64,000 bases of DNA, taken from positions 105,329 through 169,328 of IMG/VR virus record IMGVR_UViG_3300031857_000018; one strand, written 5' to 3'. Made by a program: the position numbers and the translations under genes. This DNA comes from a virus. Under the pieces are notes generated by a model. The model ran no database searches. It was not told the origin of the DNA and saw only the letters and a program-made list of their open reading frames with translations. This document shows positions 4,829 to 22,694 of this stretch, piece after piece. The stretch's first letter is position 1. The number at the start of each line of letters is the position of its first letter.

Positions 4829-5917
4829 TTATTCATAGTTCCTGATTGCCGTTACCTTCGGGAAGCGTGGCTTTCCATCCGGTGTGATTTGAAAATACTT
4901 AACCGTTGCTTGCTGACCAACCAACGTGTCTCGCTCTGCCCACAATTCTTTGAGATACTCCCAACCGCCATTAACCGATGCTGTGAAGCGATCTCCGATG
5001 GCTGTTTCAAATACTAAGGCACCTACCATTCCTGACAGGTTGCCGTTGCCTTCTTCATATCCGACAATAGTATACTCTTCGTCTGTGAATGATTTGTGTT
5101 TCATCAGTGACTTGGATCTTTTGTTTTCATAAGGTGCATCTAACCGTACCATTTGTCCTTCATATCCTGCAGACATATACTCATTGTATAATTCCATTAA
5201 CTCAGTTTCAGATTCAACAAAGTCTGTAAACACAACCACACAACACGCCGGCAATGACATTTTATTCAATGCTCCGTTCCTAACGGAAAATGGTGTATGG
5301 TGTGATGGTAGATCATATACATGATATTGGATAACCGCGGCGCTGTCAATAAGATCCTGAGCCGTTGGTTTTGTCTTTTTAACTAGGGACACAATGGCAT
5401 TAAAATCATTTGCATACTTATCCGCATACAACTCTCCGTCTAGGATCAACTCCGGATCGGCTTCAAACAATGGCTTTAGGCCTTCGAAGATGTGTGGTGC
5501 TGAAATGATAGGTTTACCTGCTCTGGTCCACATACCATCGGCACGAACAATGCAACGAATGCCATCCAGCTTAGGTTGTGAATACACAGGGTATTGTACT
5601 TTGTCTGCGAAGTCTTCCCATTTGTGGGCAAGCATTGGCTTGAACATTGTGCCGCTATCTACTGCTGCAGCATCGGCAAAGTAGCCACGCTCGGTGCGCT
5701 TCTTCCATTCTGCTTTGGCTTCTGTTAAGGCTTGTTCCTCCGGTGAGGACTCATTCACTTTGCCAATGTTCTTGGCTTGGCAGAAGGTCCATTCGGTTGT
5801 GGTGATTGCTCCGTCAACATATCCGGAGTGAGTGCGGTAAGCATCGCCCATTACTTCGATGGTGTGCTCGAGTAATTTACCTGTGGTTGCTCTTTTGTAC
5901 AAGGTCTGTAATTTCAT
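4829..5917 (-). CDS. ATP-dependent DNA ligase
   Basis: KPMLA, QPKLDGIR adenylation motif, LDGELY, EGQMVR, C-terminal PRFP. Confidence 0.95.
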   Translation of the reverse strand: MKLQTLYKRATTGKLLEHTIEVMGDAYRTHSGYVDGAITTTEWTFCQAKNIGKVNESSPEEQALTEAKAEWKKRTERGYFADAAAVDSGTMFKPMLAHKWEDFADKVQYPVYSQPKLDGIRCIVRADGMWTRAGKPIISAPHIFEGLKPLFEADPELILDGELYADKYANDFNAIVSLVKKTKPTAQDLIDSAAVIQYHVYDLPSHHTPFSVRNGALNKMSLPACCVVVFTDFVESETELMELYNEYMSAGYEGQMVRLDAPYENKRSKSLMKHKSFTDEEYTIVGYEEGNGNLSGMVGALVFETAIGDRFTASVNGGWEYLKELWAERDTLVGQQATVKYFQITPDGKPRFPKVTAIRNYE

Positions 5918-11510: not shown

Positions 11511-13493
11511 TTATCTGAACAATGTTACATGCCCGTGCAACATGGACTTTCCATCTGTGTCAGGATCGCCATACGTAACCATGTAGAAATAAACTCCATC
11601 TTGGCACATCCTGCCTTGATATGTTCCATCCCATCCTGCATTTGCATCATACGACTGCCAAATGAGTTGTCCCCAACGATTATAGATAGTGAGCTCGAAC
11701 TCATACGGATCGAAGCCAGAAGTAAAAACGGGTTGCCACATGTTGTTATATTCATCGCCATCCGGTGTAAACGTGTTAGGAATGAATATCAAAGTCTCTG
11801 GACATTGTGATACAGTTACCGATGCAGTCTGAGTATTAGATATGCACCCATTTGCATAATATGTTACAGATACCGTATTCACGCCTTCCATGCTCCACGT
11901 TATGGTTTCATTCAATGTGTTTTGCTGGATTGTGTCACCCATCCATATCCATTCATAGTAACCACCAGGCGGCGTGCTTTGTGCACTCCAAGTTATGTTT
12001 GTTATATCTAACTCACATAATTCATAGAATGCATTATATGGCGTTATAGAATCTAATACTGGTGTCGGATACACTGTAATTTGTATGACCGTATCAAACA
12101 CACAACCGCTTTGCTGATATTCATATGTTATCGAGTTGGTGCCAACTGCTATGCTAGGATCAAACTGTACTCCGGTTACTCCGATTCCTGTGAATTGTCC
12201 TCCTATAGGTACTGCTGATAAATTAACAACATCATCATACTCACACAAAGGCGCCTGTGGTTGTATGACAGGATCGATATTAAATATGAATAAATCAACT
12301 GCTTCAGTTAAACCGACGCACCCATTAAGCTCCGGCGTTACTTGCACTGCTCCTGGAATGAATCCTGGTGGTAATGCACTCCAATCCACCGTAATGCTAT
12401 CTGTACCTTGTCCTGATGTGATAACACCAACCGCATCCCAAACAAATATAACTCCTGGTTGTGATGTTGTAACATAACTAGCTAGGTTTGATTGCCAACA
12501 AATTGTGTCTGATGACTGTATTGGAGTGACAACGGGAATTGCAGTTCCAGGTAACACAAACACAGTGTCTGGTCCAGGTCCGACTGCGCCATTACATGTA
12601 GACCAACCTGCATTGCAAATTGGATAAACAAATCGACAAGTATACTGTGCTCCAGCGGCTGGTGGTGTTACTGTGATTGAAGCTCCAGTTCCTATAGGTG
12701 CTGCTACTCCTACTTGGTACCAAGTTAATGTAGGTGTAACCGTAGGTCCGTCAGGAGTCCAACGCCACGAATCATTGGTTGCGGTCCACGCAGTTGAGTT
12801 TCGTCCTGGCACGGCTACTGCTGCAGTACCTGTTGCATTGTGTATGGCTTCAACGGCAGTACCACCCGACCATTGCAGACAGGCAGGCTTGTTTTGTATA
12901 TGGTTTTCAATCACATTGGTTGATTCGTATATTACTATGTGAAATGTTCCAAAGTTATTTGTGCATGAAAACATTGGTACTCCGATCCAACTCACTGTAA
13001 GTTTTCTACAAGGTGCAACTCCTGATACTTGATATCTTATTTGTCCACCTAGGCCAGGATGCCAATCCTGCCACGGTCCCATGATACAATTTCTAGGGAC
13101 TAATGCATTTACCGTTGGTACTGTTTGGGATGTAAACGTAGTAGGTTGTGCTGGGCTAAATGATATCCATCCATTGGATCCTACGTAGAACTGAGTATAG
13201 GTTTGACCATAGAAACAAAACGTGAATCCTATATTAAAAGGACCTTGCTGTGAATCATCAGTCATTACCAAATTAGTTCCTGTGTTAGTTTGTGCTGCAT
13301 ATGGAATGCTAGTAACTGCGTATGCTGTGGTTTGTTTTGGATTTGTCCCTGCTGCACATTGTGATAAATCTGCGGTCAATGTTGTTGATGCAACGCCACA
13401 CGGTAATGTCTGATCAGGACCTAATGCCGGACAATACTGAGAATTAACTGTGCTAGCAGCTAGCAGTATTAAAAATGTAAATAAGTGTTTCAT
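11511..13493 (-). CDS. secreted protein with a T9SS type-B (gliding-motility-associated/CHU_C) C-terminal domain
   Basis: Signal peptide MKHLFTFLILLAA; C-terminal IPNTFTPDGD..N, IYNRWG, WDG..G, GVYFY, GHVTLFR. Confidence 0.88.
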   Translation of the reverse strand: MKHLFTFLILLAASTVNSQYCPALGPDQTLPCGVASTTLTADLSQCAAGTNPKQTTAYAVTSIPYAAQTNTGTNLVMTDDSQQGPFNIGFTFCFYGQTYTQFYVGSNGWISFSPAQPTTFTSQTVPTVNALVPRNCIMGPWQDWHPGLGGQIRYQVSGVAPCRKLTVSWIGVPMFSCTNNFGTFHIVIYESTNVIENHIQNKPACLQWSGGTAVEAIHNATGTAAVAVPGRNSTAWTATNDSWRWTPDGPTVTPTLTWYQVGVAAPIGTGASITVTPPAAGAQYTCRFVYPICNAGWSTCNGAVGPGPDTVFVLPGTAIPVVTPIQSSDTICWQSNLASYVTTSQPGVIFVWDAVGVITSGQGTDSITVDWSALPPGFIPGAVQVTPELNGCVGLTEAVDLFIFNIDPVIQPQAPLCEYDDVVNLSAVPIGGQFTGIGVTGVQFDPSIAVGTNSITYEYQQSGCVFDTVIQITVYPTPVLDSITPYNAFYELCELDITNITWSAQSTPPGGYYEWIWMGDTIQQNTLNETITWSMEGVNTVSVTYYANGCISNTQTASVTVSQCPETLIFIPNTFTPDGDEYNNMWQPVFTSGFDPYEFELTIYNRWGQLIWQSYDANAGWDGTYQGRMCQDGVYFYMVTYGDPDTDGKSMLHGHVTLFR

Positions 13494-13521
13494 GGTAACC
13501 TTTTAAATAAATATGTAAAGT

Positions 13522-13555
13522 AAAAAAGCCCCGGAGTATTACACTGCGAGGCTTT
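13522..13555 (-). terminator. intrinsic terminator
   Basis: AAAGCCUCG...CGGGGCUUUUUU hairpin plus U-tract. Confidence 0.7.
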
Positions 13556-13562
13556 AAATGTG

Positions 13563-13873
13563 TCAAGTTATCTGAGTGATAAGGAGTATAGACAATGTCA
13601 ACGACTACGTCACTGTCAAAGACCTTCCTTGCAGCAAAGGCAAAGTCAAAAACTAAGTCTCGGTTTGTTAGCCAATTATCTTCTCGAGTAACCTGTCTAA
13701 CGGTTGAGTTCTATCTCAGTTTTAAGTTTGCAAGGAAGCGGTAGTTTCTGAAGCGTAATCAACGCGAATTAATGTAGTTTATACAATATCTTGCTATATC
13801 TATATGAAAACCCTACCACCCTGATACAAAAAGAAAGGGCTTTGGCTTGTGCTTCCGCCCTAACTTACCTTGA
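13563..13873 (-). ncRNA. putative rod-like structured RNA starting at the stop codon of 13874..14794
   Basis: Nested long-range stems with G-U wobbles on the minus strand; period-6 repeats in the 3' arm; followed by a terminator. Confidence 0.72.
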
Positions 13874-14794
13874 TTATTTTGATTCTTTTGCGATGAACAT
13901 ATCAATTACTGGCTGGAATCTTTCCGGCACTGATATACGCCATGATGCGATATCATTGATTTGTTTTTCCAATTGTTCTTGGAACTCAAATTTAGCTTTC
14001 TTTTCAGCCGCATACCATTGTTCTTTAAGAGTTTCAAACTCTGCCCAAACTGTATTGTTATGTGCCGTAGCCGTAGCCATTTCATCTGCATTCGCTCGGG
14101 CGATACGAGCATTCTCAGCCGTAACTAGGTTTTTAACCTTGGCTTTGAAATAATTAACTCGCTGTTCGAATTCACGGTGCATTGCTGCCAATTCTTCATG
14201 AATTTGAGCCAATGATGCCGGAGTGTGATGACAATGAACTTCTACTGGAGTCTTTTCTCCTTCTTTTACAGTAATCCATTCTAGAGATTTCATGTTAGGC
14301 AATTCTATGCGTAACGCGTCTAATTCTCCACCTCGGTGAATAAATTGACCTATATGACTTGCATACGCCTCAGCTTCTAGGTATTCATTGTATTCAGCAA
14401 CTGAAAGTTGATCCCATCCCCAAGACTCATCAACTTGATCAATTTGATTATTATATTTTAATTCCGCGCGCTCTGGGAATGCAACTTGGTTTGTATAATC
14501 AAACTCCATGTTGCGTGTTACTTTAAGCATGGCATCCTTTGCACGGATATTCTCCATAAGGAATGCCTGAGTTGCGCTTAAGCGAGCTTTCTCTTGAAGC
14601 AATGCAACGATATCGGTTGGAATCGGATTAGCTGGTTGCTGAGTATACGTCTTGCCGTTAACAGTCACCGTCTTAGATGCATTGTTAATAATAGACAACC
14701 GATCCTTGATGTCACGCACTCTTTGGTTGCAAAGGTTGCTTACTGATTGAGCTTGTGATAGAGATAATCCGGTTGTTGCTAATGAATGTTTCAT
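13874..14794 (-). CDS. coiled-coil hypothetical protein (RNA-linked)
   Basis: 306 aa, helical and heptad-rich; own promoter upstream. Confidence 0.85.
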   Translation of the reverse strand: MKHSLATTGLSLSQAQSVSNLCNQRVRDIKDRLSIINNASKTVTVNGKTYTQQPANPIPTDIVALLQEKARLSATQAFLMENIRAKDAMLKVTRNMEFDYTNQVAFPERAELKYNNQIDQVDESWGWDQLSVAEYNEYLEAEAYASHIGQFIHRGGELDALRIELPNMKSLEWITVKEGEKTPVEVHCHHTPASLAQIHEELAAMHREFEQRVNYFKAKVKNLVTAENARIARANADEMATATAHNNTVWAEFETLKEQWYAAEKKAKFEFQEQLEKQINDIASWRISVPERFQPVIDMFIAKESK

Positions 14795-14873
14795 GTTTTC
14801 CTTGTTTAATTGTTTAACTTAATTAATAATAAGATACTTAATTCTAATTTCCAAATGTTTTTTAAACTTTTTG

Positions 14874-14947
14874 CACGCCTGGATGGATTCGAACCACCAA
14901 CACTCGGATTTGGAATCCGATGCTCTACCAATTGGAGCTACAGACGC
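14874..14947 (-). tRNA. tRNA-Trp(CCA)
   Basis: Cloverleaf; TCGGA-TTCCAAA-TCCGA anticodon arm; GGTTCGAATCC T-arm. Confidence 0.95.
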
Positions 14948-14953
14948 ATTTTG

Positions 14954-15091
14954 TAGTCAGGACAGGATTCGAACCTGTGTCTTTTGTTTCGGCCATGCGA
15001 GCTCATCTGCATGCTTAGGCTTTTTGTCTTCTCGGCTCCGGAACCTTACGACTGTAGCGTCACCTGATTGGCTACCAATTGCCACCTGACT
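14954..15091 (-). ncRNA. tRNA-like RNA (acceptor stem and T-arm with an expanded interior, 138 nt)
   Basis: AGUCAGG/CCUGACU acceptor stem; ACAGG-UUCGAAU-CCUGU T-arm; no canonical anticodon arm. Confidence 0.7.
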
Positions 15092-15102
15092 AACCGTTAA
15101 AA

Positions 15103-15309
15103 TTAATACTCTCGGCCCTCGAACAACTTAATCAATCGGTAATGCCATTCTGCAGGAAAATCTGCGAGTCTGGAACTACTCTTTGCTTGTTGATGTGCCT
15201 CTTTTCTTGTCGTCGCCTCTACTATACGGTAGGGCGCTTGGTATCCATTTCTGTGACACCATTCCACTCTCCAAAGTGGATACTGTGCTTGCGCTTTCAT
15301 AATGATCAA
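15103..15309 (-). CDS. small hypothetical protein within the tRNA cluster
   Basis: ORF with a VEATTRKEA motif. Confidence 0.55.
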   Translation of the reverse strand: MIIMKAQAQYPLWRVEWCHRNGYQAPYRIVEATTRKEAHQQAKSSSRLADFPAEWHYRLIKLFEGREY

Positions 15310-15362
15310 TGATCATTGTCAGCCATAAGAATTGAGCATGTTACCCTTGTTTATTAATTTAG

Positions 15363-15445
15363 TACTCGGAGCGGGACTTGAACCCGCACGACCAATTGGC
15401 CAACAGATTTTAAGTCTGTCGTGTCTACCATTCCACCACCCAAGC
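15363..15445 (-). tRNA. tRNA-Leu(TAA)
   Basis: ACAGA-CTTAAAA-TCTGT anticodon arm; long variable arm. Confidence 0.93.
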
Positions 15446-15517
15446 AAGTGCCTGTCTTTCCAGGCTGTACAACAAGGATATTCTTTGCGCATTAAGGACT
15501 CTCTTGTGCTTCCTTTG

Positions 15518-15591
15518 TACTCCTAGCAGGACTCGAACCTGCAACGCCTAGATCCTAAATCTAGTGTGTCTACCAATTCCACCATAGAAGC
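15518..15591 (-). tRNA. tRNA-Leu(TAG) with a short variable loop
   Basis: CTAGA-TTTAGGA-TCTAG anticodon arm; Leu-type D-loop; 74 nt. Confidence 0.9.
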
Positions 15592-15765
15592 TTGAGCGTA
15601 GTGGGACTGCAGATCCCTGAGGCTCCTACGCAAGTTGTTCCTCTTTATGCCGGCGCCGCTCCCTGCACGGGACTTGTACTTTGTCCTATTAAGCGTTTAT
15701 GCAAAAGACACATCCTGGTACGCCGACCTGGGTAACCCAAATCCAATGCGTGATGTGTACTTTAG

Positions 15766-15837
15766 TAGTCCCACGGAGAATCGAACTCCGATTTCTAGGA
15801 TGAAAACCTAACGTCCTAACCGTTAGACGATGGGACC
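15766..15837 (-). tRNA. tRNA-Glu(TTC)
   Basis: TAGG-TTTTCAT-CCTA anticodon arm; GGTCCCA/TGGGACT acceptor stem. Confidence 0.93.

Positions 15838-20812: not shown

Positions 20813-22694
<1,882 letters not shown>

What the first reader, a model, noticed from the sequence alone, without database searches (positions are those of the whole stretch)
13522..14860. Coiled-coil protein gene with a rod-like ~310-nt RNA starting exactly at its stop codon: candidate new protein-ncRNA system
Seen: the unit runs promoter, 306-aa coiled-coil ORF (13874..14794), 311 nt of non-coding sequence, terminator (13522-13555). The non-coding part folds back end to end on the minus strand. The stems are UCAAGGUA/UAACUUGA (13866-13873 with 13563-13570); UAUCAGGGUGGUAGGG/CCUUAUCACUCAGAUA (13811-13826 with 13569-13584, three G-U pairs, which points to RNA on this strand); UAUAGAUA/UGUCUAUA; ACUAC/GUAGU; CUUCCUUGCA/UGCAAGGAAG (13729-13738 with 13624-13633); AAAACUGAG/CUUAGUUUU; and GUUAG/CUAAC. 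There is also a side hairpin AGGGC/GCCCU. The 3' arm has a hexamer periodicity: UUUGAC-UUUGCC-UUUGCU...UUUGAC-AGUGAC-GUAGUC-GUUGAC-AUUGUC. Inference: the periodic sites could bind successive subunits of an oligomeric or filamentous protein, most plausibly the co-transcribed one. That would make an RNP or an RNA-antitoxin/autoregulatory module. I do not recognise it as a described family.
Basis: partly seen in the sequence, partly recalled or inferred. Interest (0 to 1): 0.85.

Follow-up and report, generated by a model that had tools for sequence, protein, structure and literature searches.

The report
Phage hexamer-track RNA with partner protein
A large uncultured phage carries a gene for an unknown dimer-forming protein that is followed by a conserved, folded 310-base non-coding RNA with eight evenly spaced six-base units; the pair recurs in hundreds of phages, matches no curated family, and is probably an undescribed protein-RNA particle of unknown function.

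Summary
ORF 13874..14794 (-) is followed by about 310 nt of non-coding sequence (13563-13873). This region is a conserved structured RNA: across 63 phage loci, 37 of 41 predicted pairs show compensatory changes, and the covariation score is 0.35 against 0.18 in shuffles (0 of 500 shuffles reach it).

Two stems (UAUAGAUA/UGUCUAUA and ACUAC/GUAGU) are not conserved.

The 6-nt periodicity is real. It is the most persistent feature, with 3+5 units of consensus WYUUUG on the 3' strand that are conserved in sequence but not kept in pairs.

Gene and RNA are tightly linked. All 66 testable RNA loci carry the gene. In 100 of 119 unique pairs the RNA starts within about 20 nt of the stop codon, while the flanking genes fall into about 66 different clusters.

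The RNA has no Rfam match. The protein has no Pfam, PHROG or PADLOC match and no convincing fold match. It is predicted with high confidence (pLDDT 92.7), and a homodimer is supported by the model.

My best reading, at about 50%, is a co-transcribed ribonucleoprotein that uses the hexamer track as a protein-binding platform.

A VIPR-like programmable guide is disfavoured, because the variable positions are not hypervariable.

This scan has found the same kind of module before on other phage genomes.

The parts
14826..14854 (-). Promoter-like site TTGGAA-N17-TATTAT ahead of the protein gene
   Evidence: Consensus scan, 9 of 12 matches. This is a match to a consensus only.
13874..14794 (-). Gene for the 306-aa partner protein (P0001). 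It belongs to an undescribed family and is mostly helical with two beta-hairpins.
   Evidence: ORF. More than 2300 homologues at 90% clustering and 427 clusters at 50% identity. AF2 pLDDT 92.7. No Pfam, PHROG or PADLOC match. No convincing fold match. Homodimer supported by the model, 0.47 against control 0.01.
13563..13873 (-). Whole structured non-coding RNA (about 311 nt), from the P1 5' strand to the P1 3' strand
   Evidence: nhmmer finds it downstream of the gene in 83 hits over 86 loci. RNAalifold gives compensatory change in 37 of 41 pairs. Pair counts against shuffles: 0 of 500 reach the observed values. Single copy in the 169-kb genome.
13869..13873 (-). P1 5' strand (UCAAG), directly after the stop codon. 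It pairs with 13563-13567 (CUUGA).
   Evidence: Inner three pairs 96.7% paired, with UA/AU/GU/GC variation (helix 2).
13831..13866 (-). P2 5' hairpin: stems P2a, P2b and P2c, with the conserved inner segment AAGC-ACAA-GCCGA
   Evidence: Columns 39-41/75-77 and 46-49/69-72 all covary. The mini-stem GC/GC covaries, for example GUC/GAC and GAC/GUC, by direct reading of A3.
13811..13826 (-). P3 5' strand. It pairs with 13569-13584 to form the 16-bp stem that closes the rod.
   Evidence: 16 of 16 pairs change on both sides, 87% of cells are paired, and there are many G-U pairs (helix 6).
13753..13765 (-). P6, a small GC-rich hairpin inside the variable, A/U-rich 5' strand
   Evidence: A hairpin of differing sequence is visible in most rows of A3. 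Alignment is poor here, with 62% paired (helix 10).
13730..13738 (-). P7 5' strand (CUUCCUUGC). It pairs with 13624-13632.
   Evidence: 8 of the 10 counted pairs covary and 88% are paired (helix 11).
13635..13652 (-). Hexamer block 1: UUUUUG-ACUUUG-CCUUUG, on the 3' side of the asymmetric internal loop between P8 and P7
   Evidence: UUG is invariant or nearly so at columns 425-427, 431-433 and 437-439. The opposite strand is only about 5-10 nt long.
13704..13723 (-). P8 5' strand (AAAACUGAG; pairs with 13649-13657) plus the nearly invariant segment AUAGAACUCAA
   Evidence: 91% paired, mostly invariant. The L041 swap CUUAG/CUGAG keeps the pairing. A local alternative GAG/CUC hairpin is equally compatible.
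13693..13701 (-). P9 5' strand (GUUAGACAG). It pairs with 13667-13675 (UUGGCUAAC) and has a conserved A.G mismatch. The variable apical hairpin P10 lies between the strands.
   Evidence: All 7 pairs covary, and pair 325/396 shows GU 20, UG 19, AU 18 (helices 13-14).
13587..13622 (-). Hexamer block 2: UCUUUG-ACAGUG-ACGUAG-UCGUUG-ACAUUG-UCUAUA. It is conserved in sequence but has no conserved pairing partner.
   Evidence: G at columns 458, 464, 470, 476 and 482. Pooled logo WYUUUG. Mean unpaired probability is 0.3-0.7 and no consistent partner column appears.
13522..13555 (-). Terminator-like GC-rich stem followed by U6
   Evidence: Direct reading. Relatives have clean hairpin-plus-U terminators or a tRNA gene at this position. 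The simple scan did not flag it.

Best explanation
This is a two-part module carried by large uncultured phages, probably of Bacteroidota. An early-type promoter drives one transcript that encodes a 306-aa protein of an undescribed family. That protein is mostly helical, is built of two helix / beta-hairpin / long-helix modules, and is predicted to form a symmetric homodimer. As a rule the transcript continues directly after the stop codon into a ~310-nt structured RNA of an undescribed family.

The RNA folds into a rod. It is closed by P1 and P3, carries a 5' side hairpin (P2), and has an inner domain of P7-P8-P9-P10 with several invariant unpaired segments. Its 3' strand displays two blocks (3 + 5) of tandem hexamers, consensus WYUUUG. 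These are conserved as sequence and are not held in conserved base pairs.

I read the track as a platform on which protein binds in register. I read the module as a ribonucleoprotein made of the RNA and the protein encoded just upstream. A conserved exposed basic stripe on the protein (H206, R207, R212, N214, Y215, K217, K219, K221) is the candidate RNA-binding surface.

Shown here: the RNA is real, structured, on this strand and conserved. The hexamer track is conserved. The gene and the RNA are inherited as a unit while their neighbours change.

Inferred: that the protein binds the RNA, that the track is the binding site, and everything about the cellular role. The role is probably an early-infection function in RNA metabolism or host takeover.
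For: RNA reality.
- 37 of 41 RNAalifold pairs have compensatory changes.
- 77.6% of cells are paired against 67.7% in shuffles. Covariation is 0.350 against 0.180, with 0 of 500 shuffles reaching it. Slid controls give 0.08-0.15.
- G-U pairs are frequent on this strand.
- The region is non-coding.

Track.
- Period-6 conservation is seen.
- The track is retained next to a 27%-identical protein homologue (L205), where the rest of the sequence has diverged.
- It is also retained in a 98.6-kb gut phage, PQ006092.1.

Linkage.
- RNA is found downstream of the gene in essentially every locus with enough DNA.
- 66 of 66 RNA loci found through an RNA 15-mer, with upstream DNA available, carry the gene.
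- In 100 of 119 unique pairs the RNA begins within about 20 nt of the stop codon. The nearest downstream and upstream ORFs fall into 66 and 67 clusters.

Protein.
- The model is confident.
- The homodimer scores ipSAE 0.47 against a best control of 0.01. Runs agree in at least 98% of contacts, and partner pLDDT is at least 86. The mark was reached by 20 of 30 proteins solved as pairs of one chain and by 1 of 23 solved as single chains; these counts hold only roughly here because my own alignment was used.
- Conserved basic and aromatic positions lie outside the predicted interface.
Against: No experiment or tool here shows binding.

The protein is slightly acidic to neutral overall (median pI 6.4) and has no recognisable RNA-binding domain.

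A twofold-symmetric dimer is not an obvious reader of eight direct repeats.

In 19 of 119 loci other small ORFs separate the gene and the RNA, so tight translational coupling is not essential.

Co-transcription alone could explain the adjacency if the RNA simply lacks its own promoter.

The hexamer consensus G(U/A)(C/U)UUUG equals the best site of a host-type cold-shock protein (PMC1904285).

Confidence: 0.5

Rival explanations
1. Host-factor sponge or recruiter. The single-stranded WYUUUG array binds host OB-fold single-strand RNA binders (cold-shock-domain proteins or ribosomal protein S1) in a row, one per 6-7 nt. The upstream protein is only a co-transcribed neighbour or an accessory.
For: The unit with the preceding G reads G(U/A)(C/U)UUUG. 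B. subtilis CspB prefers 5'-GTCTTTG/T-3' (PMC1904285).

The motif stays the same although the phage protein diverges to 27% identity.

The phage has no CSD gene of its own, whereas the control genome Bacteroides thetaiotaomicron does.

Pyrimidine-rich hexamers are rare on the mRNA-sense strand of this genome: TCTTTG occurs 32 times against 146 on the other strand.
Against: It does not explain why the RNA stays next to this one gene while all other neighbours change.

The CspB preference was measured on ssDNA for a Firmicute protein. In L205 the predicted fold pairs part of the track. There are no binding data.
Confidence: 0.2
2. Cis-acting 3' element of the protein's own mRNA. It acts as a stabiliser or an autoregulatory operator that the protein binds to control its own level.
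For: The RNA is on the same transcript, begins at the stop codon in most loci, and is followed by a terminator.
Against: About 310 nt with at least eight helices and several invariant unpaired segments is far more than a stabiliser needs.

The RNA keeps its form when other ORFs are inserted between it and the gene.

In some phages a tRNA gene follows within 8-50 nt, which suggests processing into a separate stable RNA.
Confidence: 0.12
3. VIPR-like noncontiguous guide. The conserved part of each repeat is held by protein, and the other positions together read a DNA or RNA target.
For: VIPR systems are phage-encoded protein plus adjacent RNA pairs. Their RNAs have 9-16 short tandem repeats that alternate conserved GGY with variable NN, and they form an RNP (bioRxiv 10.64898/2026.04.26.720920). 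The module here has the same general layout of protein gene, adjacent repeat RNA and phage origin.
Against: The non-UUG positions are constrained: position 2 is a pyrimidine in 93% of units and position 3 is U in 77%.

Among RNAs at least 95% identical in the core, these positions differ at 7.4% against 2.7% for the core. That is faster but far from hypervariable.

The period is 6, not 5. There is one RNA per genome, and the repeats sit inside a 310-nt rod.

The protein shows no RAMP-like match and has no beta-alpha-beta-beta-alpha-beta order of elements.

No complementary sites for the conserved loops exist in the phage genome.
Confidence: 0.07
4. Divergent branch of the DUF7873 plus tRNA-mimic RNA modules that this scan has reported elsewhere. 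Those are Y-RNA-like RNAs on 'a track of six-letter repeats'.
For: Earlier notes describe a protein gene followed by a 270-400-nt RNA with hexamer repeats, often in phage tRNA clusters. Here 73 of 122 unique loci have a same-strand tRNA within 2.5 kb.
Against: P0001 and six distant homologues give no DUF7873 hit even at E<=10. None of about 240 listed homologues carries that Pfam domain. No tRNA or YrlA-like match appears in the RNA at E<=10. The proposed D-loop-like UUGG is base-paired with covariation in P9. No direct comparison of sequences was possible.
Confidence: 0.08
5. A DNA-level element (iterons or a replication origin), or a small protein gene on either strand.
For: There are direct hexamer repeats, and the reverse strand is stop-poor.
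Against: Compensatory changes and G-U pairs are specific to one strand. Indels are 1-2 nt and variability has period 6. Cumulative GC skew runs monotonically through the region.
Confidence: 0.03

Closest known systems
VIPR systems (Vipr protein + vrRNA; bioRxiv 10.64898/2026.04.26.720920)
   Same: Both are phage-encoded. Both have a minimal locus of one protein gene with an adjacent non-coding RNA. In both, the RNA carries a run of very short tandem repeats in which fixed positions recur in strict register. In VIPR the protein and RNA are shown to form an RNP.
   Different: Vipr is a RAMP (RRM core, G-loop, thumb). P0001 is helical with two beta-hairpins and has no such match.

vrRNAs are ~100 nt, with 9-16 YNNGG units (period 5), hypervariable NN and a 3' tail, and often occur in arrays. 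Here there is one ~310-nt rod-shaped RNA with 3+5 WYUUUG units (period 6) on its 3' strand, and the other positions are constrained rather than hypervariable.
GOLLD, ROOL and OLE: large 'ornate' bacterial and phage RNAs of unknown function (bioRxiv 10.1101/2024.12.08.627333; Rfam)
   Same: All are large, highly structured RNAs with many invariant unpaired nucleotides. My own knowledge is that GOLLD and ROOL are phage- or prophage-borne and often lie near tRNA genes. OLE has dedicated partner proteins (also my own knowledge).
   Different: There is no Rfam match to any of them. This RNA is smaller, has a strictly linked upstream protein gene, and has a hexamer track, which those RNAs are not known to have.
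Ro60/Rsr with YrlA-type Y RNAs, and the DUF7873 + tRNA-mimic RNA modules noted earlier in this scan
   Same: A protein gene sits next to a structured RNA of 100-400 nt, in phages often inside tRNA clusters. The scan's notes mention six-letter repeat tracks in the DUF7873 RNAs.
   Different: No tRNA-like or YrlA match appears in this RNA. P0001 has no DUF7873 or other Pfam hit. The presence of Ro60 was not tested.
Protein-sequestering RNAs with repeated short sites (CsrB/RsmZ for CsrA; trp leader for TRAP), from my own knowledge
   Same: Multiple copies of a short motif are displayed in single-stranded register to load several protein subunits.
   Different: The motif is different (WYUUUG against GGA or (G/U)AG). 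The RNA is phage-encoded, is embedded in a long rod, and is tied to a protein of an unknown family.

Membership tests
Any Rfam 15 family (including 6S, tmRNA, RNase P, GOLLD, ROOL, HEARO, OLE, YrlA, tRNA) | Covariance-model match at the gathering score, or at least E<=10 | tested here: not met
   cmscan of the window at the gathering score finds only four tRNAs elsewhere. With permissive filters on 13450-13950 there are seven chance-level hits of 9.5-19.6 bits against cut-offs of 37-65, mostly over the terminator.
VIPR | Vipr protein is a RAMP (RRM core, G-loop, thumb) | tested here: inconclusive
   No Cas5/6/7 or RRM protein appears among the Foldseek or VIA-align matches. The predicted order of elements is H-E-E-H ... 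H-H-E-E-H-H-H, not beta-alpha-beta-beta-alpha-beta.
VIPR | vrRNA has 9-16 tandem 5-nt YNNGG units with hypervariable NN | tested here: not met
   The period is 6, with 3+5 units of WYUUUG. The variable positions change only 2.7 times faster than the core among near-identical RNAs.
VIPR | Phage-encoded, with the RNA in the intergenic DNA flanking the protein gene | tested here: met
   The source is a virus record of 169 kb. The RNA lies directly downstream of the gene in 100 of 119 unique loci.
Type III toxin-antitoxin (ToxIN-like) | Antitoxin RNA of tandem ~36-nt repeats upstream of an endoribonuclease toxin gene | tested here: not met
   The RNA lies downstream and its repeats are 6 nt long inside a folded rod. 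The protein has no PADLOC or Pfam hit.
DUF7873 + tRNA-mimic RNA module (earlier notes of this scan) | Partner protein matches Pfam DUF7873 | tested here: not met
   No such hit at E<=10 for P0001 or for six distant homologues. None of the listed homologues carries the domain. A remote relationship was not tested by profile-profile comparison.
DUF7873 + tRNA-mimic RNA module (earlier notes of this scan) | RNA carries one or two circularly permuted tRNA-like heads | tested here: inconclusive
   No tRNA or YrlA model match at E<=10, and ARAGORN finds nothing in the RNA. A possible T-loop-like UAGAA in the invariant AUAGAA loop was seen by eye only.
Ro60/Rsr-Y RNA | Ro60 (TROVE) gene in the genome | not tested
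   No search for TROVE was run.

The most novel reading that the evidence does not exclude
The hexamer track is read in strict register by a non-RAMP protein, so the module is a second, independently evolved repeat-register RNP alongside VIPR. The particle would recognise a fixed nucleic-acid target, or would array host OB-fold proteins, to take over host RNA metabolism early in infection.
Probability: 0.1. Interest if true: 0.95.

Novelty: categorically new. Interest (0 to 1): 0.8.

Why it matters
Neither component belongs to a curated family, yet the pair is abundant. There are more than 2300 protein clusters at 90% identity and 427 at 50%. They occur in freshwater and gut phage contigs from about 100 kb to over 400 kb.

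The pair is held together across protein divergence down to 27% identity. A ~310-nt RNA with this much conserved structure is in the size class where new ribozymes and RNP machines have been found. A strictly registered six-base track is a rare feature. Its only close analogue, VIPR, proved to be a new mode of RNA-guided recognition.

The module is compact at about 1.3 kb, with one protein and one RNA. It is therefore directly testable by co-expression, pull-down and cryo-EM.

In at least one GenBank phage, PQ006092.1, the RNA region is annotated as a 59-aa hypothetical protein. Recognising the family would therefore also correct annotations.

Tried and rejected
- Rfam at the gathering score and at E<=10 gave nothing.
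- blastn of the locus against 50,697 GenBank phages gave only tRNA hits. tblastn of P0001 against the same set gave no match.
- Pfam, PHROGs, PADLOC, PDB sequence profiles and the ESM atlas features gave no meaningful hit for the protein.
- Fold searches were unspecific. Foldseek against PDB had no match at E<=0.001. BFVD returned only a homologous uncharacterised phage protein. VIA-align over 48,161 chains gave best Z 7.0 for the whole model and 8.5 for residues 121-306, all generic helical hairpins (prefoldin, SerRS arm and SMC coiled coils among many). The atlas gave TM<=0.44, to unnamed viral clusters.
- Relatives of a virus record cannot be drawn.
- The search for related loci failed with the distant alignments A5 and A6 (the latter on genome contigs), and with the single proteins P0245 and P0267.
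- The genome-contig scan found only five mis-binned MAG contigs and gave no host clue.
- Targets complementary to the invariant loops were sought in the phage genome. Only self-matches appeared.
- The supplements of the IMG/VR structured-RNA catalogue (PMC10690425) are not held. I could not check whether fragments of this RNA (that catalogue's maximum is 151 nt) are among its 8495 unnamed candidates.
- A literature search for 'DUF7873' found no paper.
Full report
**Setting.** The window is the last 64 kb of a single 169,328-bp virus record that CheckV rates as complete. Nearly all genes lie on the minus strand. The neighbourhood holds four tRNA genes (14873-15837), thymidylate synthase, two metallophosphoesterases, a thioesterase, a GroEL-type chaperonin, a DNA ligase and a 660-aa protein with a type IX secretion C-terminal domain. 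The secretion domain points to a Bacteroidota host. That is an inference from what is known about the domain, not a tested fact.

**Conservation and structure.**
- The protein has more than 2300 homologous clusters at 90% identity and 427 at 50% identity.
- I fetched loci through the protein. A profile of the intergenic region hits downstream of the gene in essentially every locus with enough DNA: 83 hits over 86 loci and 62 of 68. The exceptions are truncated loci, very divergent loci, or a locus interrupted by a serine-recombinase (IS607-like) insertion.
- In a structure-blind MAFFT alignment of 63 distinct sequences (A3), nucleotide blocks are invariant even though the proteins are only 50-57% identical.
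- RNAalifold predicts 41 pairs, and 37 have compensatory changes.
- For a structure I wrote from the window sequence, 77.6% of cells are paired against 67.7% in shuffles. Covariation is 0.350 against 0.180, with 0 of 500 shuffles as high. Sliding the partners by 1-3 columns drops covariation to 0.08-0.15.
- Frequent G-U and U-G pairs fix the RNA to the gene's strand.
- The region is non-coding. The longest stop-free run is 37-45 aa at the median, gaps are mostly 1-2 nt, and variability has period 6 rather than 3.

**Anatomy in window coordinates.**
- P1: 13869-13873 with 13563-13567.
- P2: a 5' side hairpin at 13831-13866, with a conserved inner segment.
- P3: a 16-bp closing stem, 13811-13826 with 13569-13584.
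- A variable A/U-rich 5' strand that contains a small hairpin, P6.
- P7: 13730-13738 with 13624-13632.
- P8: 13715-13723 with 13649-13657.
- P9: 13693-13701 with 13667-13675. It includes a conserved A.G mismatch.
- P10: a variable apical hairpin.

The pairing around the invariant CUGAGAUAGAACUCAA segment is ambiguous. The long-range P8 and a local GAG/CUC hairpin are both compatible with the data.

**The hexamer track.**
- On the 3' strand, G recurs every six columns in two blocks: three units between P8 and P7, and five units between P7 and P3.
- Pooled over eight units and 63 RNAs, the logo is W(80%) Y(93%) U(77%) U(98%) U(83%) G(92%).
- The strand opposite block 1 is only 5-10 nt long. The strand opposite block 2 varies in sequence and length.
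- Partition-function folding of each RNA gives unpaired probabilities of 0.3-0.7 for the track and no consistent partner column. The track is therefore conserved as sequence, not as helix.
- It is the most durable feature. Next to a 27%-identical protein (L205) the intergenic RNA has otherwise diverged, yet it reads GUCUUUGUCAUUGUCUUUGUCAUUG...GUCAUUGUUCUUGUUCUUGUUAUUG. It folds with z = -5.8 and is still found by my covariance model R1 at E = 1e-4.
- The same layout follows the homologue in the 98.6-kb phage PQ006092.1 (z = -4.5; R1 E = 0.004). There GenBank annotates a 59-aa hypothetical CDS over it.

**Linkage.**
- I searched IMG/VR with an RNA 15-mer alone. This returned 118 stretches, of which 70 carry the RNA. 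Of those, 66 have the gene directly upstream on the same strand. The other four are cut off within about 220 nt of the contig end.
- Among 119 unique gene-RNA pairs, the RNA starts within about 20 nt of the stop codon in 100. In the other 19 it starts 79-748 nt later, for example after three small ORFs in L074.
- The nearest downstream ORFs fall into 66 clusters (101 loci) and the nearest upstream ORFs into 67 clusters (107 loci). The pair is therefore the conserved unit in a fluid neighbourhood.
- A same-strand tRNA lies within 2.5 kb in 73 of 122 unique loci. Often it sits just before the gene, and in five loci it sits 8-50 nt after the RNA.
- The genome holds one copy.

**The protein.**
- AlphaFold2 with 62 homologues gives pLDDT 92.7 and pTM 0.86. 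The model has two helix / beta-hairpin / long-helix modules plus C-terminal helices.
- No library names it.
- Fold searches give only generic helical matches.
- The homodimer test passed. ipSAE was 0.47 against a best control of 0.01, runs agree in at least 98% of contacts, and partner pLDDT is at least 86. The mark was reached by 20 of 30 proteins solved as pairs of one chain and by 1 of 23 proteins solved as single chains. These counts hold only roughly here, because my own alignment was used. This supports a dimer but does not show one.
- The interface uses the most conserved helix (residues 130-151).
- A second conserved set lies outside the interface and is the natural candidate for a nucleic-acid surface: R84, K86, R162, H206, R207, R212, N214, Y215, K217, K219, K221 and R286. 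This is an inference.

**How it most likely works.** Persistent adjacency in one transcription unit, against a background of shuffled neighbours, argues that the two parts function together. The simplest reading is an RNP in which protein loads on the registered track. I put this at about 0.5.

Three rivals are worth stating.
- Host reader. With the preceding G the unit reads G(U/A)(C/U)UUUG, which equals the preferred site of B. subtilis CspB, 5'-GTCTTTG/T-3' (PMC1904285). A cold-shock domain covers 6-7 nt (my own knowledge of the CspB-oligonucleotide structures). The phage has no CSD gene. An array for host OB-fold proteins is therefore a serious alternative, or a second layer on top of the RNP.
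- VIPR-like guide. The layout is analogous, but the defining features are not met. The non-UUG positions are constrained. Among near-identical RNAs they change at 7.4% against 2.7% for the core, which is not hypervariable. The period is 6, there is one RNA per genome, and the protein is not recognisably a RAMP.
- Cis-acting 3' UTR. This role is possible, but it does not need this much conserved structure.

**Relation to earlier notes of this scan.** The same kind of module (coiled-coil or helical protein gene plus a ~300-nt RNA with hexamer repeats) was reported before on at least two other phage genomes. A possibly related DUF7873 + tRNA-mimic RNA module 'on a track of six-letter repeats' was reported many times. 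I could not compare sequences with those. P0001 and its distant homologues show no DUF7873 hit at E<=10, and the RNA has no tRNA-like match. Membership in that family is therefore not supported, and a remote relationship remains open.

**Verdict.** This is a real, widespread gene-plus-RNA module that is absent from the curated libraries and the papers I could search. The structure and the linkage are shown. Binding and function are inferred.

Noticed in passing
window 14954-15091 (-): Directly upstream of tRNA-Trp lies a sequence with a tRNA-like acceptor stem (AGUCAGG/CCUGACU) and a canonical T arm, but with about 65 extra nt in the middle. ARAGORN and Rfam do not call it.
   Followed up: no
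L279 3933-4109 (PQ006092.1 88046-88222): In bajarodcaudo virus 1, a GenBank 'hypothetical protein' of 59 aa (XHH63432.1) lies over the structured RNA that follows the P0001 homologue. It is probably a mis-annotation.
   Followed up: partly
L210 3360-3930: In a 266-kb viral contig a serine-recombinase (IS607-like) gene sits directly downstream of the P0001 homologue, where the RNA normally lies. No RNA was found within the 2.5 kb held.
   Followed up: partly
L074 3414-4153: Three small ORFs (89, 95 and 66 aa) are inserted between the gene and the RNA. The last ORF again ends right at the RNA's first helix.
   Followed up: partly
whole genome G000: There is strong strand asymmetry of pyrimidine-rich words. 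TCTTTG occurs 32 times on the mRNA-sense strand against 146 on the other strand, and GTCTTTG occurs 2 against 17.
   Followed up: no
window 21063-22691 (-), 11511-13493 (-), 4829-5917 (-): The phage encodes a GroEL-type chaperonin, a 660-aa protein with a type IX secretion C-terminal domain, and an ATP-dependent DNA ligase.
   Followed up: no
proteins P0276-P0386: A large subfamily of 298-299-aa homologues sits on contigs of about 96-102 kb. This suggests the module is common in a distinct group of ~100-kb phages, one of them from rodent faeces.
   Followed up: partly
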